Both the position numbers and the translations under genes were made by a program. From Smithella sp. (GTDB lineage: Bacteria; Desulfobacterota; Syntrophia; Syntrophales; Smithellaceae): a stretch of DNA of 60,731 bases. Under the pieces are notes generated by a model, which saw only the letters and a list, made by a program, of their open reading frames with translations, was not told the DNA's origin and did not search any database. The DNA is taken from positions 1 through 60,731 of the forward strand of contig JBATES010000123.1 in assembly GCA_049664145.1 (NCBI GenBank), read 5' to 3'. Of this stretch, positions 24,988 to 49,715 are shown one piece after another (the first letter of the stretch is position 1; each line of letters begins with the position of its first letter).

Positions 24988-24991
24988 TTGT

Positions 24992-30071: not shown

Positions 30072-32966
30072 CTAACAGACTATGCCCGCGTTATGATACG
30101 GGTCTCCCTGCTCAAAATATAATTTCCATTTGTTTCTAAAGAACAGACTTTCGGATTGTAATCTGGCAGATTTTTCCGGCGTCTTATCAAGACCCCTCGA
30201 TACGCTTTCATAATGATAAAGCTCTGCATAGGGTGTCCATACATTTATCTTTCCTGTTTCCCGCAACTTCAGGCAAAAATCAACATCATTCAAGCCAATT
30301 TTGAAGTTGATCTCATCCATGCCACCAACTTCAAGGTACAGACGCTTCTTCACCATTAAACATGCACCAGTCACTGCACAATAATTTTGTGGCATTGTCA
30401 ACCTGTGCATATAACCGGTATGTCTTCGGTCATTCCCATGATGATAATGCGAAGCAATATCTCTCGTAAGGCCTATCACCAGCCCGGCATGTTGTATCCG
30501 GTTATCGGCATAATAAAGTTTGGCACCCACTGCGCCAACGTCTTCACGTTGAGAAAATGCCAGCATTTCTTCAATCCAATGCGGAGTAATCACTTCCGTA
30601 TCATTATTGAGTAACAGGACATGCTCCCCTTCCGCACACTGAACTGCATAATTATTGATGGCGGAAAAGTTGAATTCTTTTCCAGTGATTTTGATGATCT
30701 TAATCTCTTTTACATTCTTTAATGCATCGTAATATTCGAAGATATCATCCGTTTCACTGTTGTTTTCAACGATAATAATCTCATAATTCCTATAGGTCGA
30801 TCCTGTCATGATGGAGTCGATACATTTTTTTAAATCCTGCTTATGGTCCTTATTGGGAATAATAATGGAAACGAGCGGATTTCCCTTGATTTTGTAATGA
30901 ATTCTGAAGGAGTAGGTTGCCCTCATAAATTCAACATCACCTTCATATCCGATCCGCTTGATATGTTCCTCTATCGCTTTTCTTCCAGCTTCATACGCAT
31001 ACATTTTACTTTCAGGATTCAGGGCAACAGACCCCTGACCAGCCCGGCTGAAATAAAGCACTTTAGGGATATTTAAAATCTTTCGTGCTTTCTCGATTAC
31101 TCTTAATTCAAATTCATAATCCTGGCTGCCATCATACCCTTGTTTGAGGAATCCGACTTCGTCAATGATGAATCGGGAAAACGCAGTAAGATGACTCGCA
31201 TAGTTACAGGAACGGAGCAAATCCGGGCTGAAGCCGGGAAGGCAATGGTAGGCAAGAATCTCTTTTGTTTCATCTGAAAAAACTGCCTTATCCGAATATA
31301 TAAAATCGGCTTCGCTATTTTTATTGATACAAAGAACCACTTCCATCAGAGCATCTCTGCTCAAGCAATCATCATGGTCTAACAAGATGATGTAATCACC
31401 GTGGGCAATGGCATAGGCTTCGATGGAATTGCCGGCGATCCCTTTGTTTTCTTCCAGAAATACAACCTTAATCCTTTGATCCAGTTTCTGCCATTGCAAC
31501 AGACAATCTTTCGTTTCCTTTCCACTGCCGCCATCAGCTATGCACAATTCCCAGTATGGATAGACTTGGTTGCGTACTGTTTCGATGGTTTCATTCAACC
31601 ATTCCGGTTTAGTGTTATACGTGGGCATCACCACCGAGATCAACGGCTTATGTTCAAAACTATCAATTAAAGCTTTCATTTGGGCGAGTGATTCTTCCGA
31701 GTATGTGTCATTCTGAGGAATCCGATAGGGCACAGAGGTGGCAAGCATCCGGAAACCCCGCTTGATACCAGGCAGGCCTTCATGACGGTATAGACGCATT
31801 GCTTTCGTAATCGTGCTTTTCAGACCGCCCCCTCGCTGAATAGCAGGTCCGGCAAGATCAACAGCGCGTTGGAATCTTTTTAGCTGTTGGCCGACAATGC
31901 GCAGCGGCAGCGTAATCTGCCAACTGGTTGACGATATGAGTTCAGAAATCTGACCATCACGTTCAGCCACGGATCGATGGAGATTGACGATCTGCGCATC
32001 GCGTTTGGCTACCGATTGACGAAGGTCGGCAATCTGACTGTCACGTTCTATAGCGATTTGGTTGAGATCGTCAATCTGGCGCTTGAGATCAAGGGATGTT
32101 TTATGGATTATGGATGCCTTTCTAATATCCTGATTATAAAATAAAGAACTTAATCTTTTATATTCAGCCCTGATTTTATCTATATCCGTTAAAACATTCT
32201 CATCCATTTCTGTACTATTGTGAGCATGCAACAGGATTTCATAAAAACGATCAATCAATGAGAGTGTGTCGCTAGCGAAGTTTAGCTCTTTTATATTATG
32301 ATGTTTCAACTTTGGATCTAATAATTCTTTGGCTATAACATCGAACGGTGATCCCGCATTCGGAAAATCGATGTTGAATTGATTAAAAATACAATGAAGG
32401 GTATCGGTCGGATATGTTAAAAAATCGTCAAATTTCAGGAAGATTCTTTTTGATGGCCGGCTGTAATACTCAATCGACAGCATGTTGTTCATCCACAGAA
32501 GAAGCCCCTTCTGAATGGAAAATCCATCCCTTGTTTTCAGTGATTCAGCCACTTCCAACGGATGTCTCAGCGGAATGATAAAGAATGGCTCAATATTGAG
32601 TTCCTGCAATATGCTGATCCAAAAGGGCAGGAGAATGGATATTCTCGGATCTTTAATACAAAACAATCGACTGGTAGAAAATTCCTGCTGGATAATTTTT
32701 TTAACAGCGTCGATATGGGGTATTAATTGCGGCATCCGCCACCATTCGTCTTCAAATAAAAACAGGTCATCCCACGATGAACCTAGTGTTTGCAGAATAT
32801 GATCATTCGCTTTGACAATGTAATCATTCTCAAAATATCCTTTTTCATTATATTCATTGGGCAACATCAGTTTCGATCCTAACGATATACCCAATTTGCT
32901 TAAATATCCGGTAACGGCTGACGTGCCGCTTCGGTGCATTCCTAATACGATTATACATTGCTGCAT
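30072..32966 (-). CDS. multidomain protein: N-terminal sulfotransferase - coiled coil - GT2 - GT2 (964 aa)
   Basis: aa 1-250: PAPS 5'-PSB loop VLGMHRSGTS, CIKDPRISILLPFW, 3'-PB-like RHPLEVAES. aa about 291-348: heptad-rich repeats. aa 441-690: VVMPTYNTKPEWL, LLDHDD. aa 705-964: IIIPNKDH, LLLNNDTE, GLNDVDFCLKL. Confidence 0.8.
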   Translation of the reverse strand: MQQCIIVLGMHRSGTSAVTGYLSKLGISLGSKLMLPNEYNEKGYFENDYIVKANDHILQTLGSSWDDLFLFEDEWWRMPQLIPHIDAVKKIIQQEFSTSRLFCIKDPRISILLPFWISILQELNIEPFFIIPLRHPLEVAESLKTRDGFSIQKGLLLWMNNMLSIEYYSRPSKRIFLKFDDFLTYPTDTLHCIFNQFNIDFPNAGSPFDVIAKELLDPKLKHHNIKELNFASDTLSLIDRFYEILLHAHNSTEMDENVLTDIDKIRAEYKRLSSLFYNQDIRKASIIHKTSLDLKRQIDDLNQIAIERDSQIADLRQSVAKRDAQIVNLHRSVAERDGQISELISSTSWQITLPLRIVGQQLKRFQRAVDLAGPAIQRGGGLKSTITKAMRLYRHEGLPGIKRGFRMLATSVPYRIPQNDTYSEESLAQMKALIDSFEHKPLISVVMPTYNTKPEWLNETIETVRNQVYPYWELCIADGGSGKETKDCLLQWQKLDQRIKVVFLEENKGIAGNSIEAYAIAHGDYIILLDHDDCLSRDALMEVVLCINKNSEADFIYSDKAVFSDETKEILAYHCLPGFSPDLLRSCNYASHLTAFSRFIIDEVGFLKQGYDGSQDYEFELRVIEKARKILNIPKVLYFSRAGQGSVALNPESKMYAYEAGRKAIEEHIKRIGYEGDVEFMRATYSFRIHYKIKGNPLVSIIIPNKDHKQDLKKCIDSIMTGSTYRNYEIIIVENNSETDDIFEYYDALKNVKEIKIIKITGKEFNFSAINNYAVQCAEGEHVLLLNNDTEVITPHWIEEMLAFSQREDVGAVGAKLYYADNRIQHAGLVIGLTRDIASHYHHGNDRRHTGYMHRLTMPQNYCAVTGACLMVKKRLYLEVGGMDEINFKIGLNDVDFCLKLRETGKINVWTPYAELYHYESVSRGLDKTPEKSARLQSESLFFRNKWKLYFEQGDPYHNAGIVC
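31923..32048 (-). repeat. 3 x 42-nt in-frame tandem repeat encoding the coiled-coil core
   Basis: ERDSQIADLRQSVA / KRDAQIVNLHRSVA / ERDGQISELISSTS (aa 307-348 of the 964-aa protein). Confidence 0.7.
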
Positions 32967-33288: not shown

Positions 33289-34230
33289 TTAATCATTTCG
33301 TGAAAGAACTTTTAAATTGTAACGCAAATCTTCCAATAATTTACGGTTCGCTGAGAGCAAATCAGCGACAACGGCAATGAGAAGTGTCTGAAAGCCCATA
33401 CCAATCAGCACACTGGTGAGAATCAGCGATTGTATGTGGCCGTCACCTTGCCCATTGATATAAAACCACATAAAACGCAATCCAATCAAAGTACCGGCCC
33501 CGAACAATACAATTCCAATCGAGAAAAAAAACCGAAAGGGCCTATAAATGATAAAGATGCGAACAATCGTAACGATGCTGTGGATAATATATGATGGAAT
33601 ACTTTTCACAAGCCTTGAGGGGCGCATATCCTGATTCACGCGGATGGGTATCGAAGTAATCGCCATGTTTTTTTGACCAGCCTGAATGATGGTTTCCAGC
33701 GTATAGGTATAATTATTAAAGACGATCAGTTGCTGGGCGGCATTACGAGTCATGGCACGAAAACCGCTTGCCGCATCAGGAATGTCTGTCCGGCTCGCCG
33801 TTCTGACAACCCAGCTTCCTATTTTCTGGAGCATCTTTTTAACCGGAGAAAAATGATTAATATTGTCGATCGGCCTTTCGCCCACAACAATATCCGCCTG
33901 TCCATTGATAATCGGCTGAATTAAAGACGGAATATCGTCCGCGTTATACTGATTATCAGCATCCGTATTGACAATGATATCAGCGCCAAGACGAACAGCT
34001 TCCCGGACGCCCGTCATAAAAGCGCGGGCTAGCCCCTGATTTCGGGTATGCCTCACAATGTGATCCGCACCATTTTCCTGCGCAACTTTTACAGTCGCAT
34101 CCATACTGCCATCATCAATAACCAGCCATTCGACTTTATCAAAACCCGGCACTGTGCGCGGAAGCGCAGAAAGTGTTATAGTAAGAGTATCCGCTTCATT
34201 GTAACACGGAATTTGTATAATGAGTTTCAT
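33289..34230 (-). CDS. polyprenyl-phosphate glycosyltransferase (GT2; GtrB/ArnC/DPM1-like)
   Basis: IQIPCYNEADTL, VIDDGSMDAT, NTDADNQY, and two C-terminal TM helices characteristic of GtrB/ArnC-type enzymes. Confidence 0.8.
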   Translation of the reverse strand: MKLIIQIPCYNEADTLTITLSALPRTVPGFDKVEWLVIDDGSMDATVKVAQENGADHIVRHTRNQGLARAFMTGVREAVRLGADIIVNTDADNQYNADDIPSLIQPIINGQADIVVGERPIDNINHFSPVKKMLQKIGSWVVRTASRTDIPDAASGFRAMTRNAAQQLIVFNNYTYTLETIIQAGQKNMAITSIPIRVNQDMRPSRLVKSIPSYIIHSIVTIVRIFIIYRPFRFFFSIGIVLFGAGTLIGLRFMWFYINGQGDGHIQSLILTSVLIGMGFQTLLIAVVADLLSANRKLLEDLRYNLKVLSRND

Positions 34231-36032
34231 TTTCCATCCTTTCCCGAAATCGAAATAAGCGGGCGGAGTACCTTGGGGTCAAGGCCATCGATGCGATAGA
34301 TATAATATTTATCTTCATTCACGCTGTATTCTCGGAGGGGTTTAAGATTAAAGAGCATACTGGAAACAAGAAGTGATGGGGATTGAATTGAAGCGAATTG
34401 AAAACCAGCCTGCGTTGAAACATCTTGTATCAAAATCTGCTTTTGCTTCACTCCCCAGAATGCAAGCCTTCGCTGGTTCATTTTCATGGCCCAATCTTTA
34501 CCACGGAAACTTTGACTCATCAATGGTGACAAGTCTTTACTGTCTGTATAGATATTAAATGTATCACCATGATCATTAAGGTTTGCTATGGCATAGGCCA
34601 TTTGCCGATAATGAAGACCATTCTGATAGGCAGACATTCTTTTGGCATCCACCATTATGGATACCAGCATAAACACAATCATGGGCAATACAAACAATCG
34701 AATATCAGTTTTTCGAAAGCGCAAAAATATCAAAGGCAGTAGAACACTGGCGATAGCTGTTAAATACACCGATGACGAAACCATGGCTATAACATCAACT
34801 CCACCGGATTCGCTTATGGGAATAGATATAGCATATTTTCCAATAGCTTTATTAAAAAGGATCTCCCAAGCTAAGAAGGAAAACCCGACCAACACGCCTA
34901 TACCGATGCATGCTTTCATATCTCGAAATGGCGCCTTTCTTTCAACAATCCTTTCCAGAAACCATAAGCCAACAACTAACATAATCGGCGATAAATGCAT
35001 CAGGTAGCGCCCGATCAAACGCTGCGGCACAGGGTAGTTATAACCTGCTCCAAAAGAGTGCTGGACGGCGAGGAGCCAATAACAACCCAAAAGTAGCAGG
35101 GCAAGAACAAGAAACAGTCTCTGTTGTGTGTCCAAGCGAATCCGCAAGGCTTTATCACTGAATTGAGACGCCCAGATTACGATCATCCCCCAGATAGGAA
35201 GCCAGGCCAGAATGACGTAGGAACTATAAGCCGCAACCCACATTAATAAAGAACCGCCTGTGGCTGCCTGTGCTATCCCTCCAGAGATGCCTAAACCAAA
35301 TAGCTGCCTTAAGTAAAAATCACTGGCCAAACCGTAAATCAGCCAAGCCCCCATAACCACACCGTAGCTTGCTAATACTAAAAATGCAGGCCTGTATCGG
35401 CGGAGCAGACTTTCGGATCTGGTATCCGGCATATTCATGCTGCGAGAGTACAACCATGCACCGAAAAGCAGTGGCAACGCTGGAAGAAACAGGTATTTCG
35501 TAAGATGGGTAATTCCTAAAACGAAGCCGAAGCCCAACGCTTCAACATTTCCGCGCTTGTCTCCCCGTAGTGCCAATGCCACGGCTATAACAAAAAGCGG
35601 CACAAATAAATTTTCACTTAATAGAAGATTTGTATATACAATGTGCATCGGCAATAAACCCGCAAGCAACGCTGCAAGTAATGGATGCCGCACATTGGCT
35701 GCACGCGCAAGGAACCAGGTAGCCGGAACGACGAGGCTTGACCAAAAAGCGTTTTGAACGAGCATAACCTCATACCAATGCTTAAAAAAAAGAGCGGGGG
35801 CAAGCACTAAGGGATATAAAGGCGGGTAATGCGCGGTCGCGTATTTTTGAAGAGCAAAAATTGCGCAAGCATTTAATTTATAGGTTAATTCATCAGGATA
35901 CGCTGGCCCGGAAGAAATGAGGACAGCCCATATCGCCTTAAAGGCAAACAGGACAAGGGTCATCAAGGCCAAAACGGGCAGGTCTTTATATGGTGAATCA
36001 TTCACGTTCGATATTTGGTTATTTATGTTCAA
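34227..36032 (-). CDS. GT-C-fold membrane glycosyltransferase (ArnT/PMT, GT39/GT83-like)
   Basis: About 12 TM segments. First-loop acidic motif AYPDELTY. 4-nt overlap with the downstream GtrB-like gene. Confidence 0.7.
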   Translation of the reverse strand: MNINNQISNVNDSPYKDLPVLALMTLVLFAFKAIWAVLISSGPAYPDELTYKLNACAIFALQKYATAHYPPLYPLVLAPALFFKHWYEVMLVQNAFWSSLVVPATWFLARAANVRHPLLAALLAGLLPMHIVYTNLLLSENLFVPLFVIAVALALRGDKRGNVEALGFGFVLGITHLTKYLFLPALPLLFGAWLYSRSMNMPDTRSESLLRRYRPAFLVLASYGVVMGAWLIYGLASDFYLRQLFGLGISGGIAQAATGGSLLMWVAAYSSYVILAWLPIWGMIVIWASQFSDKALRIRLDTQQRLFLVLALLLLGCYWLLAVQHSFGAGYNYPVPQRLIGRYLMHLSPIMLVVGLWFLERIVERKAPFRDMKACIGIGVLVGFSFLAWEILFNKAIGKYAISIPISESGGVDVIAMVSSSVYLTAIASVLLPLIFLRFRKTDIRLFVLPMIVFMLVSIMVDAKRMSAYQNGLHYRQMAYAIANLNDHGDTFNIYTDSKDLSPLMSQSFRGKDWAMKMNQRRLAFWGVKQKQILIQDVSTQAGFQFASIQSPSLLVSSMLFNLKPLREYSVNEDKYYIYRIDGLDPKVLRPLISISGKDGK

Positions 36033-36134
36033 TTGAGGTAAGATCTATATTTGATGCGCGATTGATATTTCAGTCACCGCATTTAATTTTATTCTTGTGC
36101 CACACTATTCGAGGGCTTGCCGTGGGTGGCGCCC

Positions 36135-37168
36135 TTAATCATCTGCAACACCTGCCGACGAATCGGCGCTTCCGTCCAATGGGAATTTGCGCGCAAAGTA
36201 TTTTCCACTACAGGTAAGGCGTTCCAGGTAACTTTCATCCAGAGTATTCGGTCCGCTATTTCCGTACGTCCAGAATAAGGCGTGATTACTGGCGGCAACG
36301 CGTAGTGCTTTCATATTACCAATAAGAGTATGAAAGTAGGATTCGTCAGGGATAAAGCACCGGGAAAAATGTTCGGCAATTTGCGGATGATCCTCTGGCA
36401 CCTTTAACAACAACTCGGCAACGCGACGCGATATGCCGAACCATTGTCCGCCAACGTAACAGTTCTCATAATCAAACAATGGAAAGCAGCCTTTCCCATT
36501 CGCTATTGTCATTTTAAAAATCAGCTTTCCCAACCGTTGCCGCAGTCGCCCTGTCAAAGTGGCCTCCGGCCTAGACAGGGCGCAATTCAACACGAGTCCA
36601 TCTGCTGAGCCGTCTTTTCGCTGCCTAGCCACCATGAGCGCGACGTCATGGCTATTCGCATGGCACGCCGGGAGCGCGTAAGATAACGCCATCCGTGGCT
36701 AAGCAGGATATCTGATCCTGGGTTGGTAAGTAGTTCCAGGTCGATCATCGCGTCAGGTTGCGTCGCCGCCAAATATGATTCAAAGTCCTTAATCGAGCGA
36801 ATCGGCAGACAGCTTTCAGACAATAGTTGGAAATGGGTACACTGCGGATCGCGCATCTCCTCCTGCATTAGCAGAGCGCAGGCCTCGACCAAAGACCATC
36901 CGGCCCACGCCGTATTTAGCGGTTGCGGCAGTATGATAACATTAGGCCGTTCAATGTCAAAATCGTAATGCTTTGAAAAATCATGATGTACTATAACCCT
37001 GTGCGGATAGACGGCGTTCGCAAGCTGTGTAACAGCAGCGGCAGAATCCCTGCATGAAAGGACACCGAAGGCGATTTTTGGATACTGCATTTTGTCCTGT
37101 TCTTGTATCATGATGGCAATCAGCTCTGTTTGTCTTCGGTTAGAAAATCGTATAGCATGATTTTTCAA
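36135..37168 (-). pseudogene. GT14 (core-2/I-branching 'Branch' family) glycosyltransferase gene split by a frameshift
   Basis: Two overlapping ORFs in different frames (36587-37168 and 36135-36692). The N-part reads KIAFGVLSCRD...VIVHHD; the C-part reads GGQWFGISRR...YFARKF. Total length 1034 nt is not a multiple of 3. Confidence 0.6.
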
Positions 37169-37197
37169 AAAACTTGTTTCGGTTCAACTTCAAGGTT

Positions 37198-37739: not shown

Positions 37740-37748
37740 ACAATTTAA

Positions 37749-39818
37749 TTATGAAGCATCTCCATTGCCTAAAAAAGTATGCTTTGCCCATGGCTGAGAT
37801 CGATCCCAGCCATTTGCAGATATTGTTTTGAGTTCACGTTTGCTTGGAAGAACAAGCCTGTCTGCACTGAATGTAGCACGCGTGCCATGCCAACCGCGCT
37901 GCTCCACTTCCTCGCGGGAATAAATGCGTTCGTTTCCATATTTTGCGATGGCATGGGCACGGCTTAAGACAATATAGTGACGCAGAATGAAATTATCCGG
38001 ATATATCTTCCTGCCTTCAAAGTTAGCGCTGTGCCCGCCGGAAGAGACGATATCGACGGTCTGGCCGGTATTTTTCCATGCTTTGATCTGCCGTAAAGGT
38101 ATTGGTTCGAAAAAATAATAATACTGCATTTTTTCAACATAATCCGTTCCTTCAAAAGACTCATCGTCTGATGTGGGCAGAAAAATAAATTCATCAAAGT
38201 TGATGGCATTGTAGCCTTCCTGATCGGCTTGCAGGATACCTTCATACAGAGATTTAAAAGGCGTGGGCGCTTCGCGGATTTCGTCGGCATCCAAATGAAT
38301 AAACCAATCAGCATCAATTTCTCTTGATAGTTGTGCTTTGTAAGATAGCAAATTCGTCCAATCATAAAAACCCGGGAAGGGTTGTGTTTCAATTCGAAAT
38401 ACAGCGTGGCCAAGATATTTATGCGCAATTTCCAAAGTGGAATCAGTCGATTCATTATCAATCACACATGTCTCAATGCCTTGTTCATACAAATGTCTCA
38501 AGCATCGATCAAGATACAACGCCTCGTTCCGAACCGTGAGCAGGGCAACGATGCGAATCTTTGATCGTGTATGAATACCCAGGTCAACTGTACCAAGAAA
38601 TGTTTTATTCTTTTCTATTACCTCGAATGACAACAGCCCCGCCTGTTTGTCAATGGGCTGAAAGACTGTCTCTGAAGCCCGGTCTTCGAGTCTGACCGTG
38701 ATGTGATAACGCCCGGCGGCCAGGTTCGCGCTGAAACGCGCAATAATCGCTCCCTTTTTCCATCCTTCACCGTCTAAAATACCATTAAGAGGGAAAAAAC
38801 TGCCTCCCACATCCATCATTCTGCGATCGTGGATGATTAAACTAATATAAGGGTTGGGCAACGACGTAAGGTGTTTAGCTTCGATACGTACTTCAATTTC
38901 TTCTCCTTTCATATAGCTGGAGAACAAGCCTTGTGAATTCGTAAAACTTGCCGATAGAATCTGGCCTTCTTCCGTGCCGAAGGCGATGCCGTTTTTTTCA
39001 CCCAGAAAAGGCTTGACCGTAATATGCTTGCCGGCGGCGGCATAACGGCGCTGCTCATCACGCATATCCATGTAATACCGTTCCGCCATTTCTTCCGGAG
39101 CGCCCCGAGCCCTCTCCCGCCCCTCCTGAAGATATAAAACTTGATGACAAAAATTCTTCATCATACTTACATCATGGGAAACAAAAAGGACGGTGGTGCC
39201 GCCGGATGTCAGAATCCGCAATCTGTCCAGACATTTAAACTGAAAGGCTGCATCGCCAACCGCCAGCGCCTCATCAATGATGAGAATATCCGGGTCCACG
39301 CAAACGGAAACCGCGAAAGCAAGCCTTACCAGCATTCCGCTCGAATATGTTTTCACAGGCTGTTCGATGAAATCGCCAATATCCGCAAACGCTGCAATAT
39401 CCTCAAAGCGGGCATTGATTTCCTCCTGGCTCAACCCCAGAATGGCGCCGTTCATAAAAACATTCTCGCGGCCGGTGAAATCAGGATTGAAACCGGAGCC
39501 CAGTTCCAGTAAGGCAGCAACGCGGCCGTGGGTTTCCACGCTCCCCGTGGTTGGCGAAATGGTGCCGCAGATCAATTGCAAAAGAGTGGATTTTCCAGAA
39601 CCATTGCGGCCAATGATGCCAACCGTCCTGCCCTTGATCACCTCGAATGAAATATCCCTGAGCGCCCAGAATTCGCGATAGTATTGTCCCGGTGTCATAC
39701 CCATAAGGCGTCGAATCCGGGGATAAATAGACTGTTTGAGCCGGTCGTTGGGCTGGTCGTAGATCTGATAGCATTTGCTGAGATTGTTAACCCGTATGGC
39801 AATATTTTCAGAGGACAT
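37749..39818 (-). CDS. wzt: O-antigen ABC exporter ATPase Wzt with a C-terminal carbohydrate-binding-type domain and an additional GT2-like domain
   Basis: Walker A GRNGSGKST, signature YSSGMLVRL, Walker B ILIIDEAL, H-loop SHD. aa about 295-420 form a beta-rich Wzt_C-like module. aa 437-706 have LTVRNEALYL, VIDNESTDST, HLDADE (GT-A). The ATG at 39818 overlaps the wzm stop. Confidence 0.8.
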   Translation of the reverse strand: MSSENIAIRVNNLSKCYQIYDQPNDRLKQSIYPRIRRLMGMTPGQYYREFWALRDISFEVIKGRTVGIIGRNGSGKSTLLQLICGTISPTTGSVETHGRVAALLELGSGFNPDFTGRENVFMNGAILGLSQEEINARFEDIAAFADIGDFIEQPVKTYSSGMLVRLAFAVSVCVDPDILIIDEALAVGDAAFQFKCLDRLRILTSGGTTVLFVSHDVSMMKNFCHQVLYLQEGRERARGAPEEMAERYYMDMRDEQRRYAAAGKHITVKPFLGEKNGIAFGTEEGQILSASFTNSQGLFSSYMKGEEIEVRIEAKHLTSLPNPYISLIIHDRRMMDVGGSFFPLNGILDGEGWKKGAIIARFSANLAAGRYHITVRLEDRASETVFQPIDKQAGLLSFEVIEKNKTFLGTVDLGIHTRSKIRIVALLTVRNEALYLDRCLRHLYEQGIETCVIDNESTDSTLEIAHKYLGHAVFRIETQPFPGFYDWTNLLSYKAQLSREIDADWFIHLDADEIREAPTPFKSLYEGILQADQEGYNAINFDEFIFLPTSDDESFEGTDYVEKMQYYYFFEPIPLRQIKAWKNTGQTVDIVSSGGHSANFEGRKIYPDNFILRHYIVLSRAHAIAKYGNERIYSREEVEQRGWHGTRATFSADRLVLPSKRELKTISANGWDRSQPWAKHTFLGNGDAS

Positions 39819-40659
39819 CGGCAAATCCCTTTCGTGTCTTTTGAAACCAGGCAAATCCGGCCCAGGCAATGATCAGCCCAACCACCATCATAATGCACCA
39901 GGTAACCGGATCAGGCAGTTTCCCGAGGATCAATACGTTTCTCCCCTCTTCGATAATCACGGCCAGGGGATTGAGTCTCATCCATATTCGGTAGGTCTCC
40001 GGTAGAGAGCTAATCGGAAAAAACACACCGGATATAAATAAAAGCACGGTCGTTATGATGCCGGTTATTTGACCGATATCGCGCATAAATACGCCCAGTG
40101 ACGACAGAAACCACGCGAATCCGATTGTTGCAAATACAAGCGGAAGCATAACGACGGGAAAAAGCAGCGCCGTAAAAGGGATATGCCCCATAAAGATTAG
40201 TTGGGCGACGATCAGGACGACCAGGCTTATGACCGCGTGAAAAAGCGCGGACCCGAATGCGATCCACGGCAGTATATCCAACGGGAAGACCACCTTTTTA
40301 ACGTAGTTGACGTTGGAAAGAATAAGTCCCGGCGCGCGATTAACACATTCAGCAAATAATCCATGAATAATCATGCCGACAAAAAGCATCATAGCGAAAT
40401 CCATTTTACCTTCCTGCACGTTAATGCCCCAGCGTGTCTTGAAGACAACTGAAAAAACAAAGGTATAAATAACCAGCATCAGCAGGGGATTGAAAAACGA
40501 CCACGCCATTCCCATCAATGAGCCCTTGTAGCGGCCTACCACTTCGCGCTTGGCCATCTGCACAATGAGCTGGCGGTTATGCCACAGGTTTCTGACCAGC
40601 GCCGCGGGCGATGTGGGATGGGCGGCATGGGGATTGACTTCTATGAGGGAATTAGTCAT
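39808..40659 (-). CDS. wzm: O-antigen ABC exporter permease (ABC-2 type, Wzm)
   Basis: Six TM segments. REVVGRYKGSLMGMAWSFFNPLL N-terminal ABC-2 motif. Paired with wzt. Confidence 0.85.
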   Translation of the reverse strand: MTNSLIEVNPHAAHPTSPAALVRNLWHNRQLIVQMAKREVVGRYKGSLMGMAWSFFNPLLMLVIYTFVFSVVFKTRWGINVQEGKMDFAMMLFVGMIIHGLFAECVNRAPGLILSNVNYVKKVVFPLDILPWIAFGSALFHAVISLVVLIVAQLIFMGHIPFTALLFPVVMLPLVFATIGFAWFLSSLGVFMRDIGQITGIITTVLLFISGVFFPISSLPETYRIWMRLNPLAVIIEEGRNVLILGKLPDPVTWCIMMVVGLIIAWAGFAWFQKTRKGFADVL

Positions 40660-40770: not shown

Positions 40771-42675
40771 TCATCGTCTGATAATCTCTTTCTCTTTGAG
40801 CATATTCAGAATACAGGCAACGCTGTCTTCCACGCTTTGCAAATCCGTATGCAGCAGAATTTCCGGATGATCGGGGGCTTCATACGGCGACGATACACCG
40901 GTAAAATTTTTAATTTCTCCACGCATGGCCTTCTGATACAGCCCATTGGGATCACGCCGCTTGCACACATCCAGATCGCAGGAGACGTGAATTTCAAAAA
41001 AATGCCCTTCCGGAATTAAGGAACGGGCGATGGCTCTGTCTTTAGCAAACGGAGAAATAAATGTGCAAATGACCAGGTGACCGGATTCAAAAAACAGTCT
41101 CGCCACCTGAGCCGCTCTCCTTATATTTTCCTGCCGGTCTTTTTCGGAAAAGCCGAGGTCAGCGCACAAACCGTGGCGCAGCTGGTCACCATCCAGAAGT
41201 ATGGTCTGGTGGCCAAGATCAAAAAGTTTCTTTTCCAGCGCCATGGCGACGGTTGATTTTCCCGCTCCGGATAATCCGGTCAGCCATATAACCGCAGCCT
41301 GATGATTGCTGCGAGCTTCTCGGGTCTGACGATCAATGTTCCAATCCCGCCAAACCGTGTCCGGGGATTTGTTCTGATTGGACATGGCCGTTTCATCTTT
41401 TGGAATAATATCTTCAATCGTTCGGGATAATCCCCGGATCATCCCCGCCGCCACCGTATGATGGGTCAGGGGATCAATCAGGATAAAACACCCCGTACTG
41501 CGGTTCATTTTATAAGGGTCGGAAAAGATCGGCGATGTCGCTTGAAGCTCGACCCGACCGATGTCGTTCAGATTGAGGATATCCGCCTGATGACGATGAA
41601 GGTTATTGACATCCACTTTATAAATAATTCTGGAAACAAACGCTTTAACCGTCCGCGTGGTATGCAGTAAAAGATACGTTTTGTTGAGGGACATGGGCAC
41701 ATCATCCATCCAGCAGATCATGCCTTCAAAATTCGACCCGACATAAGGAAGATTATTCTTCCTGACGATCATATCACCCCGGCTGACATCAATCTCGTCT
41801 TCAAGGGTCAGGACGACGGACTGCGGTACGAAAGCTTCCGTGAGTTCTCCCTCATAGGTGACGATCGATCGGACGCGTGTCGTTTTGCCCGAAGGAAGAA
41901 TGACTATTTCCTCTCCCGGACTCAGTGTGCCGGAAACAATCCTGCCGGCAAAGCCCCTGAAATCCTGATGCGGCCGGATGACATACTGAACCGGAAAACG
42001 AAAGTCCACCAGATTCCTGTCGGCGGAAACGTGCACCGTCTCCAGATAATGGAGCAATGAAGCGCCCTCGTACCAGGGCATGTTCGCGCTTTTTTCCACC
42101 ACGTTGTCACCCTTGAGAGCGGAAACCGGGATGAAGACAAGATCATGGATATCCAGTTTTTCGGAAAATTCGGTATATTGCTCAACGATCATGTTATAAA
42201 CGTCTTCAGAATAATCCACCAGGTCCATCTTGTTGATGGCGACCACCAAATGAGGAATCCGCAAGAGGGATACAAGAAATCCATGGCGTTTGGATTGTGT
42301 AAGCACCCCGTTGCGGGCGTCAATCAGAATGATGGCGCAGTCGGCGGTCGATGCTCCGGTGATCATATTCCGGGTATATTGCTCGTGGCCGGGACTATCC
42401 GTGATAATAAACTTTCTGTTGGCTGTCTCGAAATAACGATGTGCAACATCAATGGTAATGCCCTGTTCCCGTTCCGCGGATAAGCCGTCCAAAAGGAGCG
42501 CCAGATCGACTTCCGCCATTCCCCGCTTGCGGGAGGTTTTTTCTATAGCGGCATACTGATCTTCAAAAATGGTCTTTGTTTCATATAGCAACCGTCCGAT
42601 CAACGTCGATTTGCCGTCGTCCACGCTGCCCGTCGTTGAAAACCGCAGCAGGGTATGTTCTTTACTGGTTGTCAA
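40771..42675 (-). CDS. cysNC: bifunctional sulfate adenylyltransferase subunit 1 / adenylyl-sulfate kinase (CysN-CysC fusion, NodQ-like)
   Basis: GTPase motifs GSVDDGKSTLIGRLL, DSPGHEQY, NKMD. C-terminal APS kinase P-loop LTGLSGAGKSTVA. Confidence 0.93.
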   Translation of the reverse strand: MTTSKEHTLLRFSTTGSVDDGKSTLIGRLLYETKTIFEDQYAAIEKTSRKRGMAEVDLALLLDGLSAEREQGITIDVAHRYFETANRKFIITDSPGHEQYTRNMITGASTADCAIILIDARNGVLTQSKRHGFLVSLLRIPHLVVAINKMDLVDYSEDVYNMIVEQYTEFSEKLDIHDLVFIPVSALKGDNVVEKSANMPWYEGASLLHYLETVHVSADRNLVDFRFPVQYVIRPHQDFRGFAGRIVSGTLSPGEEIVILPSGKTTRVRSIVTYEGELTEAFVPQSVVLTLEDEIDVSRGDMIVRKNNLPYVGSNFEGMICWMDDVPMSLNKTYLLLHTTRTVKAFVSRIIYKVDVNNLHRHQADILNLNDIGRVELQATSPIFSDPYKMNRSTGCFILIDPLTHHTVAAGMIRGLSRTIEDIIPKDETAMSNQNKSPDTVWRDWNIDRQTREARSNHQAAVIWLTGLSGAGKSTVAMALEKKLFDLGHQTILLDGDQLRHGLCADLGFSEKDRQENIRRAAQVARLFFESGHLVICTFISPFAKDRAIARSLIPEGHFFEIHVSCDLDVCKRRDPNGLYQKAMRGEIKNFTGVSSPYEAPDHPEILLHTDLQSVEDSVACILNMLKEKEIIRR

Positions 42676-43598
42676 AAGTATCCCTCTTTTTTCTTCTTCT
42701 CCATGGAAGCATCACTGGTCAAATCAATAACACGGTTTTCCCGTTCCGATTTTTTGGCCACGATCACTTCGGTTATGATTTCGTCAATACTGACCGCCGT
42801 TGACGCAATCGCGCCGGTGCAGGGAATGCATCCCAGACTCCGGAAGCGGCATCGCACGGTCTCAACGATTTCCTTTTCCGTCGGGCCGTCCTTCTCCGCG
42901 GCAACCACAGATGCCGACGACAGCGGAATCAAAATGCCGTTGCGCCGGACAACCTTCCGTTCCATGGCAAAGTAGATTGGCACCACCGGAATATTTTCCA
43001 TTTTAATATACTGCCAGATATCCTTTTCCGTCCAGTTGCTGAGCGGGAAAACCCTTACGGTCTCCCCTTCATTAATATGTGTATTATAAAGATCCCAGAC
43101 TTCCGGCCGCTGATTCTTGGGGTCCCACTGACCAAAGGCATCCCGCAGAGAAAAGACGCGCTCCTTGGCCCGTGACTTCTCCTCTTCCCTTCTGGCCCCG
43201 CCGATGGCCGCGTCAAAACCGTGTTTTTTGATGGCGGTGAGCAATGCCCCGGTTTTGAGATGACTGCAACATTTATCAACACCGGTCTTCAGGGGGTGAC
43301 ATCCCCTGGCAATCCACTCTTCGTTGCGTTCCACAATAAGCCGGACATCCAGCTTTTTGCAGAAAGCGTCCCTGAAGGCATACATTTCCGGAAACTTGAA
43401 GCCGGTATCCACATGCATCAGAGGGAAAGGAATCGGGCCTGGATAAAACGCCTTCAGTGCCAGGCGCACCAGTACGCTGGAATCCTTACCCACGGAATAG
43501 AGCAAAACGGGGTTCTTAAATTCCGCCGCTACCTCCCGCAGAACATGAATGGATTCAGATTCGAGCTGTTTCAGATACGGCATGCTGTATGAGGACAT
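42672..43598 (-). CDS. cysD: sulfate adenylyltransferase subunit 2
   Basis: PP-loop LLYSVGKDSSVL, CysD-type C-terminus (RFRSLGCIPCTG). 4-nt overlap with cysNC. Confidence 0.93.
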   Translation of the reverse strand: MSSYSMPYLKQLESESIHVLREVAAEFKNPVLLYSVGKDSSVLVRLALKAFYPGPIPFPLMHVDTGFKFPEMYAFRDAFCKKLDVRLIVERNEEWIARGCHPLKTGVDKCCSHLKTGALLTAIKKHGFDAAIGGARREEEKSRAKERVFSLRDAFGQWDPKNQRPEVWDLYNTHINEGETVRVFPLSNWTEKDIWQYIKMENIPVVPIYFAMERKVVRRNGILIPLSSASVVAAEKDGPTEKEIVETVRCRFRSLGCIPCTGAIASTAVSIDEIITEVIVAKKSERENRVIDLTSDASMEKKKKEGYF

Positions 43599-44395
43599 CA
43601 GCTGATTTCTCCTGACAAATAGGCCCGCGTCCGTTCATCTTTCGGAGCATTGAATAGTTCTTCGGCGGGGCCGTATTCCACCACTTCGCCCATGTACATA
43701 AAGACCACATAATCGGCCAGACGCCTTGCCTGACGAAGGATGTGGGTCACAACCACCAGAGTGTAGTCTTGTTTTAAAATCTTAAAACGGGATTCGACAA
43801 TCTTGGAGGAAACGGGATCCAGTGCCGACGTGGGTTCGTCGGCAAGAATAACCTCCGGTTCCACAGCCAGCGTTCTGGCCAAGGCCAGGCGCTGCAGCTG
43901 TCCGATGGAAAGTTTCGCCGCGGGGCTATGCAAGCGGTCTTTCACCTCGTCCCAGAGACCGGCCAGCTGCAAATAGTGTTCAACACAATGATCCATGGCG
44001 GAACGTGCATTTTGGGAAGCTACCTTGGCTGCCTTTTTCGGAATCCCCTCCCCGTTCAATCCGTGAATCTTCGGTCCGAACGCAACATTATTGTAAATTG
44101 ACATGGGAAGCGGATAAGGCCGCTGGGAAAGAAATCCGACCTTTTTCCGCAAAGCCAGAAGGTCGGCATCCTGATCATAAATATTGATCCCATCAATGAC
44201 AACCGATCCGGTCAGTGATACTTCATCGTAAAGATCCAGAAGCCGGTTCATGCTTTTAAGCAACGTTGTTTTACCACAGCCGGATGGACCGATAATCGCG
44301 ACAATCTGACGGTCGGGGATATCCAGGGTAACCTGTTTGAGTACCTCGAAATCTCCGTAGTGAACTGATAGATCATGTATTTGTATATGGGACAT
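43598..44395 (-). CDS. pstB: PstB-family ABC transporter ATPase (atypical signature motif)
   Basis: PstB-like N-terminus with GPSGCGKTTLLKSMNRL, LWDEVKDRLH. Signature LSIGQLQR instead of LSGGQQQR. Walker B ILADEP. The stop shares 1 nt with the cysD ATG. Confidence 0.8.
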   Translation of the reverse strand: MSHIQIHDLSVHYGDFEVLKQVTLDIPDRQIVAIIGPSGCGKTTLLKSMNRLLDLYDEVSLTGSVVIDGINIYDQDADLLALRKKVGFLSQRPYPLPMSIYNNVAFGPKIHGLNGEGIPKKAAKVASQNARSAMDHCVEHYLQLAGLWDEVKDRLHSPAAKLSIGQLQRLALARTLAVEPEVILADEPTSALDPVSSKIVESRFKILKQDYTLVVVTHILRQARRLADYVVFMYMGEVVEYGPAEELFNAPKDERTRAYLSGEIS

Positions 44396-44407
44396 CGTTT
44401 TTATTCC

Positions 44408-45253
44408 TTAACGGATTACATTTCTTGAGAAACGTTCCCCCAGTATTCTTGCCGCAATATTGACCACAAGCACAATCAAAAGCAGAACCAGAGCGGCGGC
44501 ATAAGCCCGTTCCTGCACTTCCGGAATGGGCGTCCCGATCTGAAAAAAAATGGCCAGAGGCAAAGATGCAACAGGATCCATCAATGACCGCGGCATATGA
44601 TCGGTATATCCGGCCGTAAAAAGAATGGAGGCCGCATCCCCGATCGCCCGGCCGAAAGCGAGAATAACTGCCGTAACAATACCGGGAATAACCTGCCTGA
44701 AAACGATCCATGTTGTTTCCAGCCGTGTTGTGCCCAGAGAGACGGCAATCTCTCTTAATTCCGCGGGAACCATGCGCAGGATCTCTTCCATCAACCGGAC
44801 CATAATGGGCATCGTCAGAAGTGTCAACACAAAGATGCCCCCCAAAAGAGATGCGCGAATGCCGAAATAAACCATCACCACAAAGCCGACGGCGCCATAA
44901 ACAATGGAAGGGGTCCCCCACAGCACTTCCAGGACAACCCGGCTAATACGGGCAAGGCGGGAACTGGCATATTCCTTCTGCAGCGCAAAAGCGACCGGGA
45001 GACTGAAAAACAACGCGCAAAGGGATGCGCCAAAAGCAAGATACAGGGAGCCGGCAATGGCATTGGCAATACCTCCTTCACCTCCCAGATAATATCCGCC
45101 TTTCGGGATATCGATGAGCATGGAGAGACTCAGTGCGGAAGCGCCCCTGACCAATATAACAAGAATCACACCGGCAAGCATGCCGAGCAGTAAAATCAGG
45201 GATAACTGCATTAATCGCTTAAAAAAAATCTCCTGCTGCTTGCGGTTCAGCAT
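44408..45253 (-). CDS. pstA: PstA-like ABC permease
   Basis: Six TM segments. EAA loop ELREIAVSLGTTRLETTWIVFRQV. Position pstS-pstC-pstA-pstB. Confidence 0.8.
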   Translation of the reverse strand: MLNRKQQEIFFKRLMQLSLILLLGMLAGVILVILVRGASALSLSMLIDIPKGGYYLGGEGGIANAIAGSLYLAFGASLCALFFSLPVAFALQKEYASSRLARISRVVLEVLWGTPSIVYGAVGFVVMVYFGIRASLLGGIFVLTLLTMPIMVRLMEEILRMVPAELREIAVSLGTTRLETTWIVFRQVIPGIVTAVILAFGRAIGDAASILFTAGYTDHMPRSLMDPVASLPLAIFFQIGTPIPEVQERAYAAALVLLLIVLVVNIAARILGERFSRNVIR

Positions 45254-46144: not shown

Positions 46145-46149
46145 CTTCT

Positions 46150-48638: not shown

Positions 48639-48744
48639 TTCAAAATCGTCCTGTTTCCTGCAATATTTTCATTATGACCATTTACACCTATTCTGCAATG
48701 TGGCCTGGATGGGCACATAATAATGCCGGGGAAGGCTAAAGGCA

Positions 48745-49680: not shown

Positions 49681-49715
49681 ACATCAGCGCGCCCATTGAA
49701 CAACTTGATAACTTT

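What the first reader, a model, noticed from the sequence alone, without database searches (positions are those of the whole stretch)
37749..39818. Three-module Wzt: ABC ATPase + carbohydrate-binding-type domain + extra GT2-like domain
Classical Wzt proteins are either short (NBD only) or NBD plus a roughly 150-aa C-terminal module that recognises the glycan cap. Here the NBD (aa about 20-260) and a beta-rich Wzt_C-like segment (aa about 295-420) are followed by a further 270 aa. That extension carries GT-A hallmarks (LTVRNEALYL, VIDNESTDST, HLDADE). I do not recall a glycosyltransferase fused to the exporter ATPase being described. It would physically couple a final glycosylation or editing step to export.
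Basis: partly seen in the sequence, partly recalled or inferred. Interest (0 to 1): 0.7.

Follow-up and report, generated by a model that had tools for sequence, protein, structure and literature searches.

The report
Glycan exporter ATPase fused to glycosyltransferase
The ATPase subunit of a sugar-polymer export pump carries both the usual sugar-cap-reading module and a complete, apparently active sugar-adding enzyme, a rare but conserved gene fusion that suggests a finishing step is done on the pump itself.

Summary
One uninterrupted 689-aa gene on the minus strand (ATG 39818, stop 37749-37751) encodes three modules:
- a Wzt ABC ATPase;
- a Wzt_C carbohydrate-binding module (CBM);
- a 270-aa GT-A glycosyltransferase. 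It has a high-confidence model (pLDDT 96), a conserved DxD motif (D510/D512) and every residue that is invariant in its family.

It is not an assembly artefact. 41 protein clusters (46-83% identity) from independent assemblies keep the same reading frame, and all three modules are under purifying selection (dN/dS 0.13-0.21).

The architecture is rare, with about 4-5 representatives among 1.84 billion clusters at 50% identity. It is also evolutionarily labile. The GT is usually a stand-alone gene, sometimes overlapping the stop codon of a CBM-type wzt. It is very often fused to, or followed by, sulfotransferases.

The window places sulfate-import and PAPS-synthesis genes directly upstream of wzm. 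It also encodes a sulfotransferase / coiled-coil / GT2 / GT2 protein that resembles a terminator-ruler-polymerase.

My best reading is that a finishing or capping glycosyltransferase is tethered next to the cap reader in a sulfated-glycan pathway. The function is inferred, not shown. I rate it a new variant of a known kind, of moderate interest.

The parts
37749..39818 (-). wzt fusion gene, 689 aa plus stop: NBD, CBM and GT-A in one reading frame
   Evidence: ORF and translation; Pfam; 41 fused homologue clusters
39024..39818 (-). ABC nucleotide-binding domain, aa 1 to about 265. Walker A is GRNGSGKST, the signature is YSSGM, and Walker B is ILIIDEA.
   Evidence: ABC_tran at 83 bits; aligned to A. 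aeolicus Wzt 8dku/7k2t with E=1e-67; motifs read
38580..38984 (-). Wzt_C carbohydrate-binding module, aa 279-413
   Evidence: PF14524 at 51.6 bits against a cut-off of 30.4. The alignment to A. aeolicus Wzt runs on into its CBD, to query residue 379.
38559..38579 (-). Very short linker (about HTRSK) between the last CBM strand and the first GT strand. This is the fusion junction.
   Evidence: In the split relative L010 the wzt stop codon and the GT start codon overlap at this point (ATGCGTGTAG).
37752..38558 (-). GT-A (GT2-type) glycosyltransferase domain, aa 421-689
   Evidence: PF13704 and PF00535 above cut-off; AF2 pLDDT 96.2; Foldseek hits are all GT-A GT2 enzymes; 693 homologues, mostly stand-alone
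38283..38291 (-). DxD motif, D510-A-D512, within HLDADE
   Evidence: D94 is at least 90% conserved and D96 and E97 are invariant or nearly so in alignment A1. The motif aligns with the DADE of GmaR.
39808..40659 (-). wzm, the ABC-2 permease partner. Its stop codon overlaps the wzt start by 11 nt.
   Evidence: ABC2_membrane at 96 bits; 91% identical to the L001 and L004 wzm
40771..47121 (-). Sulfate import and activation genes directly upstream of wzm: sulfate-binding protein, two permeases, the ATPase, cysD, and a cysN-cysC fusion (PAPS synthesis)
   Evidence: Pfam PBP_like_2, BPD_transp_1 (twice), ABC_tran, PAPS_reduct, and GTP_EFTU plus APS_kinase. Syntenic with L001 at 95-96% identity.
30072..32966 (-). 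964-aa protein made of an N-terminal sulfotransferase, about 120 aa of long helices (coiled-coil-like) and two GT2 modules. It is a candidate terminator-ruler-polymerase of the same pathway.
   Evidence: Two GT2 domains. The PAPS motifs GMHRSGTS and R134..S142 are invariant in 73 homologues. The AF2 model has helices spanning aa 256-377. Foldseek top hits are sulfotransferases: CurM ST, OLS ST and TPST2.
33289..36032 (-). 601-aa polytopic membrane protein with no Pfam match, plus a 313-aa GT2. The pair is conserved downstream of the fusion in relatives.
   Evidence: 66-73% identical to the pair in L001 and L004.
36135..37168 (-). GT14 ('Branch') gene split into two overlapping frames. It occupies the slot that holds two sulfotransferase genes in the closest relative, L001.

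Best explanation
Shown. The gene encodes a genuine Wzt export ATPase. After its cap-reading CBM, and a linker of only about 5 residues, comes a complete and apparently catalytically competent GT-A glycosyltransferase.

The fusion looks like the product of merging two neighbouring, translationally coupled genes (wzt, then GT). In split relatives the stop and start codons overlap.

Inferred. The GT is a finishing enzyme of an ABC-transporter-dependent pathway for a sulfated glycan. It most likely adds a non-reducing-end residue to the undecaprenyl-linked polymer. In most relatives that residue would then be sulfated by the sulfotransferases fused to, or encoded just after, the GT.

Tethering the GT to the CBM dimer would place the 'writer' next to the 'reader' under the Wzm channel. 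A chain would then be finished and captured for export at one site, with the two activities in 1:1 stoichiometry.

In this window the dedicated downstream sulfotransferases are missing. The sulfotransferase / coiled-coil / GT2 / GT2 protein (30072-32966) and the PAPS genes upstream of wzm would supply polymerisation, chain-length control and sulfation.
For: Architecture and integrity:
- ORF, domains and motifs.
- GT-A fold and catalytic motifs: the AF2 model has pLDDT 96.2, all Foldseek top hits are GT2 enzymes, and the window copy keeps every family-invariant residue, including D454/N455/S457/D459 and D510/D512/E513.
- Purifying selection against L001: dN/dS is 0.13 for the NBD, 0.21 for the CBM and 0.18 for the GT.

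Conservation of the fusion:
- 37 NBD-CBM-GT and 4 NBD-CBM-GT-sulfotransferase clusters, at 46-83% identity.
- Linker lengths differ between lineages, about 5 aa versus about 20 aa.

Links seen in different gene arrangements:
- wzt and GT are adjacent or overlapping in L010, L004, L036 and L051 and separated by one sulfotransferase gene in L033; every one of these Wzt proteins carries Wzt_C.
- GT-sulfotransferase fusions occur in cyanobacteria, deltaproteobacterial MAGs and Cloacimonadota.
- 39 of 80 species genomes that carry this GT have a sulfotransferase within 6 kb. In about 30 of them it is fused to the GT or lies immediately downstream.
- All six other fused loci examined have sulfotransferases directly after, or fused to, the gene.

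Position and context:
- The GT(-ST-ST) block sits directly after wzt and before the large polymerase. That is where the terminator wbdD sits in the P. syringae wzm-wzt-wbdD-wbdA operon.
- PAPS genes lie next to wzm.
- A neighbouring protein combines a sulfotransferase, a coiled coil and polymerase GTs.
- In the A. aeolicus transporter the cap is bound between the CBD and the NBD and released on ATP binding. This gives a structural rationale for placing a writer there.
Against: - No biochemical data exist for any member of this GT subfamily. The donor, acceptor and glycan structure are all unknown.
- The same GT-sulfotransferase module also occurs with ABC transporters that have only an NBD and no CBM (L002; the capsule-like P0122 locus). 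Most GT-family loci have no wzt within 6 kb. The GT is therefore not intrinsically a cap writer and could add an internal, side-chain or adaptor residue.
- In this window the two sulfotransferase genes that follow the fusion in the closest relative are replaced by a split GT14 gene. The GT-to-sulfotransferase logic is not directly visible here.
- The candidate terminator with a coiled coil is on a different protein. This argues that termination as such may not be the GT's job.
- The closest sequence and structure matches (GmaR, SunS, ThuS) are protein or peptide glycosyltransferases, and TM-scores are only about 0.5.
- I could not model the geometry of the three domains together.
Confidence: 0.45

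Rival explanations
1. The fused GT is an ordinary pathway glycosyltransferase that builds an adaptor, a repeat-unit residue or a side branch. It happens to be fused to Wzt because the two genes overlapped. The fusion gives at most co-localisation or stoichiometric coupling of synthesis and export, with no link to cap recognition.
For: - The same GT (with its sulfotransferases) is found with CBM-less ABC transporters and in loci with no nearby wzt.
- The fusion is rare and labile. There are about 4-5 representatives at 50% identity, and fused forms fall into 12 clades interleaved with stand-alone forms. A single-base change at the overlapping stop/start would create it.
- A separate protein combining a sulfotransferase and a coiled coil looks like the real terminator.
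Against: - The fusion has persisted from 83% down to 46% identity, with both parts under purifying selection.
- Wherever wzt lies next to this GT, it carries a CBM (8 of 8 cases).
- The GT sits in the gene slot held by terminators in prototype operons.
- The repeated further fusion to sulfotransferases suggests a decorating or finishing module rather than a backbone polymerase.
Confidence: 0.35
2. The GT domain glycosylates something other than the exported polymer, such as a protein or peptide, or it acts mainly as a regulatory or scaffolding appendage of the transporter.
For: The best PDB sequence hit is the flagellin O-GlcNAc transferase and anti-repressor GmaR (E=1.7e-4). The best structural hits are the S-glycosyltransferases SunS and ThuS, which act on peptides.
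Against: - These matches cover the generic nucleotide-binding half of the GT-A fold, at 14-17% identity and TM-score of about 0.5.
- All genomic contexts examined are polysaccharide loci with wzm/wzt, polymerase GTs and sulfotransferases.
- All catalytic-type invariant residues are retained, which argues against a purely structural role.
Confidence: 0.08
3. The fusion is an artefact: a sequencing or assembly frameshift has joined two separate genes.
For: In split relatives the wzt stop and the GT start overlap, so a single-base indel would fuse them. The window also contains an apparently frameshifted GT14 gene nearby.
Against: The same continuous frame is present in many independent assemblies, with different linker sequences and lengths: L001, L021, L031, L081, L083, L086 and 41 protein clusters. 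Selection acts on both sides of the junction.
Confidence: 0.03

Closest known systems
CBM-containing WzmWzt O-antigen ABC transporters (E. coli O9a, K. pneumoniae O12 / R. terrigena, Aquifex aeolicus; PDB 7k2t, 8dku)
   Same: The NBD and the Wzt_C jelly-roll CBM align over residues 7-379 with A. aeolicus Wzt (E=1e-67). An ABC-2 permease gene, wzm, lies upstream and overlaps it. The pathway logic would also be shared: the cap is read by the CBD before export (paper text).
   Different: The solved A. aeolicus Wzt chain that matches best is 404 aa and ends with its CBD. This protein continues for a further 270 aa into a GT-A enzyme. The cap chemistry is unknown, and context suggests a sulfated terminus. 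That is not among the caps listed in the paper text (methyl, methylphosphate, Kdo, candidate pyruvate).
Chain terminators of ABC-transporter-dependent O-antigen synthesis: WbdD (kinase and methyltransferase plus coiled coil), the N-terminal GT99 Kdo transferase of WbbB, and K. pneumoniae O4 ORF7
   Same: The GT occupies the gene position directly after wzt, as wbdD does in the P. syringae operon. A glycosyltransferase acting as a terminator has precedent in Kdo capping in O12 and O4 (paper text).
   Different: There is no sequence relationship; this is a GT2-type GT-A domain with no coiled coil. Known terminators are separate proteins or are fused to the polymerase, not to the exporter ATPase. 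The coiled coil in this locus is on the 964-aa sulfotransferase-GT2-GT2 protein.
Other database-only Wzt-CBM-enzyme fusions, such as the roughly 900-aa Pseudomonas chlororaphis-group 'ABC transporter ATP-binding protein' with ABC_tran, Wzt_C and PS_pyruv_trans
   Same: The design is the same: NBD, then CBM, then a modifying enzyme in one polypeptide. Pyruvate has been proposed as a candidate terminator in P. protegens (paper text).
   Different: The appended enzyme differs, a pyruvyl transferase rather than a GT2. None of these fusions has been characterised biochemically, as far as I could find.
Stand-alone and sulfotransferase-fused members of the same uncharacterised GT2 subfamily (260-300 aa; Nostocales GT-sulfotransferase proteins of about 545 aa)
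   Same: They are 55-80% identical to the window's GT domain and share the same invariant residues.
   Different: They are not attached to an ABC ATPase, and most are not within 6 kb of a wzt.

Membership tests
Wzt (glycan-export ABC transporter ATPase with CBM) | ABC nucleotide-binding domain with Walker A, signature and Walker B motifs, homologous to Wzt/TagH | tested here: met
   ABC_tran at 83 bits; TagH and Wzt NCBIfam models are the top hits but score below their equivalog cut-offs; E=1e-67 to A. aeolicus Wzt; the motifs GRNGSGKST, YSSGM and ILIIDEA are visible
Wzt (glycan-export ABC transporter ATPase with CBM) | Partner ABC-2 permease (Wzm) encoded next to it | tested here: met
   ABC2_membrane at 96 bits at 39808-40659, overlapping the wzt start
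Wzt (glycan-export ABC transporter ATPase with CBM) | Wzt_C carbohydrate-binding module C-terminal to the NBD | tested here: met
   PF14524 at 51.6 bits against a cut-off of 30.4, aa 279-413; the alignment extends into the A. aeolicus CBD
Wzt (glycan-export ABC transporter ATPase with CBM) | Binds a terminal cap and exports the lipid-linked glycan | not testable with these tools
   Needs binding and export assays
GT-A fold glycosyltransferase, GT2-type (Pfam clan GT-A; PF13704/PF00535) | Sequence membership above the curated thresholds | tested here: met
   PF13704 at 39.3 bits (cut-off 27.5) and PF00535 at 30.7 bits (cut-off 23.3). Only the N-terminal 85 residues or so match the profiles.
GT-A fold glycosyltransferase, GT2-type (Pfam clan GT-A; PF13704/PF00535) | GT-A three-dimensional fold | tested here: met
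   AF2 pLDDT 96.2 and pTM 0.93. There are 157 PDB matches at E<=1e-3, and the top ones are all GT2 GT-A enzymes, with TM-scores of about 0.45-0.53.
GT-A fold glycosyltransferase, GT2-type (Pfam clan GT-A; PF13704/PF00535) | DxD metal and nucleotide-sugar binding motif, plus the upstream D/N-x-S-x-D nucleotide-binding motif | tested here: met
   D510-A-D512-E513 and D454-N455-x-S457-x-D459 are invariant or at least 90% conserved in 117 homologues. The DADE motif aligns with that of GmaR.
GT-A fold glycosyltransferase, GT2-type (Pfam clan GT-A; PF13704/PF00535) | Glycosyl-transfer activity, donor and acceptor | not testable with these tools
   No characterised close homologue was found
Known O-antigen chain terminators (WbdD; WbbB GT99 domain; O4 ORF7) | Homology to a kinase/methyltransferase or to a GT99-type Kdo transferase | tested here: not met
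   No such Pfam, NCBIfam or PDB hits were found. The hits are GT2 enzymes.
Known O-antigen chain terminators (WbdD; WbbB GT99 domain; O4 ORF7) | Coiled-coil molecular ruler in the same polypeptide | tested here: not met
   The GT-domain model has no long helix. Long helices are found instead in the neighbouring 964-aa protein.
Known O-antigen chain terminators (WbdD; WbbB GT99 domain; O4 ORF7) | Adds the non-reducing terminal group that stops polymerisation and is read by the CBM | not testable with these tools
   Only context supports this: gene position, association with CBM-type Wzt, and linkage to sulfotransferases

The most novel reading that the evidence does not exclude
The transporter carries its own cap writer. 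The Wzt-tethered GT would add a dedicated terminal sugar, which is sulfated using PAPS made by the adjacent cys genes. The sulfating enzyme would be the sulfotransferase / coiled-coil / polymerase protein here, or the sulfotransferases fused to or following the GT in relatives. The CBM in the same polypeptide would read this sulfo-sugar cap. That would amount to a previously undescribed cap chemistry (sulfate) and a write-then-read hand-off on a single polypeptide of an ABC exporter.
Probability: 0.25. Interest if true: 0.75.

Novelty: new variant of a known kind. Interest (0 to 1): 0.5.

Why it matters
In the prototype capped-glycan systems, the terminator, the ruler, the polymerase and the cap-reading exporter are separate proteins or polymerase fusions. 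How a finished chain end is handed from the enzymes to the transporter remains open.

A natural polypeptide that joins a glycosyltransferase to the cap reader and the ATPase offers two things. It is a ready-made construct for structural work, such as cryo-EM of a Wzm/Wzt-GT complex. It is also a direct test of whether finishing and export are spatially coupled.

The strong genomic link between this GT subfamily and sulfotransferases, the PAPS-synthesis genes embedded in the locus, and the sulfotransferase / coiled-coil / polymerase protein all point the same way. Sulfation may be a chain-end or chain-length signal in ABC-transporter-dependent glycan assembly. It is not among the cap chemistries listed in the literature I could read (methyl, methylphosphate, Kdo, candidate pyruvate).

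The organisms concerned are uncultured or poorly studied anaerobes (Smithella and other Desulfobacterota), so experimental follow-up would need heterologous expression.

Tried and rejected
- Plus-strand reading of the stated coordinates: only stops, so the gene is on the minus strand.
- The upstream TTG start at 39869: rejected in favour of the ATG at 39818, on homologue alignment and the overlap with wzm.
- Assembly artefact: rejected.
- Remnants of the sulfotransferase genes that follow the fusion in relatives: tblastn with the stand-alone sulfotransferases of L083 and L081 found nothing anywhere in the window at E<=1e-3, so nothing in 36033-37748. Only the N-terminus of the 964-aa protein matched sulfotransferase-like relatives.
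- The 601-aa ORF (34227-36032) and the 107-aa ORF (37198-37521): no Pfam hit, even at E<=5 for the 601-aa ORF and E<=0.1 for the 107-aa ORF.
- Literature: the 2019 census by Mann, Kimber & Whitfield and the 2020 Whitfield review could not be opened. Full-text searches for Wzt together with fused/glycosyltransferase, sulfotransferase, C-terminal extension or pyruvyltransferase gave no description of this fusion. One search call failed on a format error.
- Full-length three-domain model: I spent the second structure job on the neighbouring sulfotransferase domain instead. The tool returns no coordinates or PAE, so inter-domain geometry could not have been read anyway.
- Monophyly of the fused forms: a neighbour-joining tree gave 12 interleaved fused clades. 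I treat this only as evidence that the fusion is labile. Some 'stand-alone' proteins on short contigs may be truncated, and neighbour-joining on a single 270-aa domain is weak.
Full report
**1. The observation**

The stated coordinates hold a gene, but on the minus strand. The plus-strand translation is broken by many stops. The minus strand is open from 39869 to 37749.

The biologically sensible start is the ATG at 39818. It is preceded by a GGGA-type ribosome-binding site (read by eye from the sequence) and overlaps the stop of the upstream gene by 11 nt. It matches the N-terminus of homologues (MSSENIAIR here, MSSEDIAIR in L001) and aligns from residue 2 of A. aeolicus Wzt. The product is 689 aa.

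Pfam gives four matches above the curated thresholds:

| Family | Residues | Bits | Cut-off |
|---|---|---|---|
| ABC_tran | 53-185 | 83 | 25 |
| Wzt_C | 279-413 | 51.6 | 30.4 |
| Glyco_tranf_2_4 | 430-514 | 39.3 | 27.5 |
| Glycos_transf_2 | 428-470 | 30.7 | 23.3 |

The three-module description is therefore correct.

**2. Each module is orthodox**

The NBD and CBM align continuously over query residues 7-379 with the solved full-length A. aeolicus Wzt (8dku/7k2t, E=1e-67). Walker A (GRNGSGKST), the signature (YSSGM) and Walker B (ILIIDEA) are intact. The upstream gene (39808-40659) is an ABC-2 permease, that is Wzm.

For the C-terminal 273 aa I aligned 116 homologues (A1) and obtained an AlphaFold2 model with mean pLDDT 96.2 and pTM 0.93. 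A Foldseek search of the PDB returns 157 matches at E<=1e-3. The top ones are all GT-A GT2 enzymes: SunS/ThuS, WrtF, SpsA, K4CP and TarS. TM-scores are about 0.45-0.53, which reflects a divergent C-terminal half.

The nucleotide-binding motif D454-N455-x-S457-x-D459 and the DxD motif D510-A-D512(-E513) are invariant or at least 90% conserved across the family. The window copy retains every invariant residue.

**3. The fusion is real, rare and labile**

A search with the full protein found relatives covering 99-100% of the query at 83% down to 46% identity. Classifying all proteins fetched with domain HMMs gave these counts of clusters at 90% identity:
- 37 NBD-CBM-GT clusters;
- 4 NBD-CBM-GT-sulfotransferase clusters;
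- 119 stand-alone GTs;
- 4 GT-sulfotransferase fusions.

The same continuous frame is present in independent assemblies: a Smithella MAG (L001), a Desulfocapsaceae MAG (L021), a deltaproteobacterial MAG (L031), Desulfonatronum (L081), L083 and L086. Linkers differ between them, about 5 aa here and in L001 and about 20 aa in L021 and L031. This excludes an assembly artefact.

Against L001, dN/dS is 0.13 for the NBD, 0.21 for the CBM and 0.18 for the GT, so all three parts are under purifying selection. dS rises from 0.30 in the NBD to 1.07 in the GT. The upstream genes are 91-96% identical and the downstream genes only 66-73%. This indicates a recombination breakpoint inside the gene. The CBM-GT end belongs to the variable, probably serotype-specific, half of the locus, as reported for the P. 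syringae wzt-wbdD-wbdA operon.

The architecture is rare. An exhaustive HMMER scan of 1.84 billion representatives at 50% identity shows only about 4-5 that span the whole query: P0024, P0361 (with an added sulfotransferase), P0038, the partial P0363 and perhaps P0371.

The GT is much more often a separate protein. There are 693 homologues, and the top 120 are proteins of 246-348 aa at 55-80% identity. Of 80 species genomes that carry it, 3 have the fusion. In 4 the GT lies directly downstream of a separate wzt, and in one more (L033) a sulfotransferase gene sits between wzt and the GT. Most have no wzt within 6 kb.

Split versions exist in the same genus (L004, Smithella) and in a relative whose NBD-CBM is 78% identical (L085). 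In Methylotenera (L010) the wzt stop and the GT start overlap (ATGCGTGTAG), so a single-base change would fuse the genes. In a neighbour-joining tree of GT domains, the fused forms fall into 12 clades interleaved with stand-alone forms. This suggests repeated fusion and fission, with caveats about truncated gene calls.

**4. What the GT is associated with**

Two associations stand out.

The first is with CBM-type Wzt. Whenever this GT lies next to a wzt (3 fused and 5 split cases), that Wzt carries a Wzt_C CBM.

The second is a very strong link to sulfotransferases.
- The GT is fused C-terminally to Sulfotransfer_3/_1 domains in Nostocales, Laspinema (two sulfotransferase domains), deltaproteobacterial MAGs and Cloacimonadota.
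- With a sulfotransferase HMM of my own, 39 of 80 loci have a sulfotransferase within 6 kb. In about 30 it is fused or lies immediately downstream.
- All six other fused loci I inspected have sulfotransferases directly after the gene or as a fourth domain.

The recurring order is wzm, wzt(CBM), GT, sulfotransferase, sulfotransferase, large multi-GT polymerase. That puts the GT-sulfotransferase block where the terminator wbdD sits in the P. syringae wzm-wzt-wbdD-wbdA operon (E. coli O9a has the same order, from my own knowledge).

There are counter-examples. In L002 and in the capsule-like P0122 locus, the same GT-sulfotransferase block accompanies an ABC ATPase with only an NBD and no CBM.

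**5. Context in the window**

The window looks like a Smithella-type genome, since cysD, cysNC and wzm are 91-96% identical to those of a Smithella MAG.

Directly upstream of wzm lie a sulfate ABC importer, cysD and a cysN-cysC fusion. Together these form a PAPS-supply operon embedded in the glycan locus, and the cysD, cysNC and wzm part is syntenic with L001.

Downstream, the two sulfotransferase genes of L001 are replaced by a 107-aa ORF and a GT14 'Branch' gene split over two frames. A conserved 601-aa polytopic membrane protein and a GT2 follow.

Next comes a 964-aa protein whose N-terminal 440 aa I examined further.
- The sulfotransferase PAPS motifs (GMHRSGTS, and R134...S142) are invariant in 73 homologues.
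- The model (pLDDT 87) shows an alpha/beta domain followed by about 120 residues of long helices.
- The best PDB matches are sulfotransferases: CurM ST, OLS ST and TPST2.
- Two GT2 modules follow.

This layout (sulfotransferase, coiled coil, GT2, GT2) mirrors the terminator-ruler-polymerase layout of K. pneumoniae WbbB described in the text retrieved. The pathway served by this transporter therefore probably makes a sulfated glycan, perhaps with a sulfate-containing chain end.

**6. How it most likely works**

Shown: an intact ATPase, CBM and GT-A in one polypeptide; conservation; selection; and genomic linkage to CBM-type Wzt, sulfotransferases and PAPS genes.

Inferred: the GT acts on the undecaprenyl-linked polymer at the cytoplasmic face and most likely adds a finishing, non-reducing-end residue. 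That residue would be sulfated in most relatives. Tethering the GT about 5 residues after the last CBM strand would put this 'writer' next to the 'reader' under the channel.

In A. aeolicus the cap is bound between the CBD and the NBD in the nucleotide-free state and released on ATP binding, and CBDs dimerise by swapping their C-terminal strands. The GT would therefore hang from the distal face of the CBD dimer, two copies per transporter.

I give this reading about 0.45. The main rival, at about 0.35, is that the GT is an ordinary pathway enzyme (adaptor, branch or repeat residue) and the fusion only co-localises synthesis with export. The CBM-less contexts support this rival, as does the fact that the coiled-coil terminator candidate is a different protein. 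A protein- or peptide-glycosylating or purely structural role (about 0.08) and an artefact (about 0.03) are unlikely.

**7. Comparison with what is known, and novelty**

As a transporter, this is a member of the CBM-type Wzt family; all testable defining features are met. As an enzyme, it is a GT2-type GT-A member of an uncharacterised subfamily.

It is not a member of any known terminator family. It has no homology to WbdD or GT99 and no coiled coil.

The papers I could read list cap chemistries as methyl, methylphosphate, Kdo and candidate pyruvate. They state that CBMs had not been seen in terminator enzymes until K. pneumoniae O7 ORF6. None describes a GT2 fused to Wzt or a sulfate cap. 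The 2019 census most likely to have catalogued such architectures could not be opened, so prior mention cannot be excluded.

Database proteins show that the general design recurs with other enzymes. Examples are the Wzt-CBM-pyruvyl-transferase proteins of about 900 aa in Pseudomonas, and a 1169-aa protein with a methyltransferase and a GT1.

I therefore class this as a new variant of a known kind, of moderate interest (0.5). The most novel reading not excluded is a self-capping exporter with a sulfo-sugar cap. I give it a probability of about 0.25 and an interest of about 0.75 if true.

Noticed in passing
window 30072-32966 (-): A 964-aa protein combines an N-terminal sulfotransferase (invariant PAPS motifs, sulfotransferase fold), about 120 aa of long helices and two GT2 modules. 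This is a WbbB-like 'terminator / coiled-coil ruler / polymerase' layout, but with a sulfotransferase. Homologous sulfotransferase-helix modules occur alone or fused to GT2, GT4 or methyltransferase domains in many bacteria. I found no description of a sulfotransferase chain terminator.
   Followed up: partly
window 40771-47121 (-): A complete set of sulfate-uptake and PAPS-synthesis genes (sulfate-binding protein, two permeases, the ATPase, cysD, and a cysN-cysC fusion) lies inside the polysaccharide locus directly upstream of wzm. The cysD, cysNC and wzm part is conserved at 91-96% identity in a Smithella MAG (L001). It looks like a dedicated PAPS supply for glycan sulfation.
   Followed up: partly
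window 36135-37168 (-): A GT14 'Branch' family glycosyltransferase is split into two overlapping reading frames (36587-37168 and 36135-36692). It is either a frameshifted pseudogene or a sequencing error. It occupies the slot that holds two sulfotransferase genes in the closest relative, L001.
   Followed up: partly
window 37749-39818, compared with L001: Synonymous divergence jumps within the gene, from dS 0.30 in the NBD to 0.48 in the CBM and 1.07 in the GT. The upstream genes are 91-96% identical and the downstream genes 66-73%. This points to a recombination breakpoint inside wzt that separates a conserved half of the locus from a variable half.
   Followed up: yes
window 33289-36032 (-): A 601-aa polytopic membrane protein with no Pfam match (GT-C-like by eye) is paired with a 313-aa GT2. 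The pair is conserved downstream of the wzt/GT genes in L001, L004 and L085. It may be an extracytoplasmic glycan-modification pair.
   Followed up: no
window 47190-58863 (-): A second glycan gene set lies in the same window. It comprises a WecA-type initiating transferase (57790-58863), a second wzm/wzt pair with an NBD-only ATPase (56220-57764), two sulfotransferases (55175-56119 and 48745-49680), a radical-SAM/SPASM enzyme (54030-55178), a pyruvyl transferase (52875-53954), several GTs and a Wzx-type flippase (47190-48638).
   Followed up: no
window 22713-28754 (-): An O-antigen ligase-type protein (Wzy_C, 22713-24029) and a DUF2142 membrane protein (27324-28754) lie with further GT2 genes and an epimerase at the far end of the locus. 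This is consistent with the exported polymer being ligated to a lipid or core acceptor.
   Followed up: no
proteins P0080-P0120, e.g. P0086 from Pseudomonas chlororaphis: Wzt proteins of about 900 aa carry ABC_tran, Wzt_C and a PS_pyruv_trans domain and are common in Pseudomonas genomes. They use the same exporter-plus-reader-plus-enzyme design with a different enzyme. P0047 (1169 aa) adds a methyltransferase and GT1 domains.
   Followed up: no
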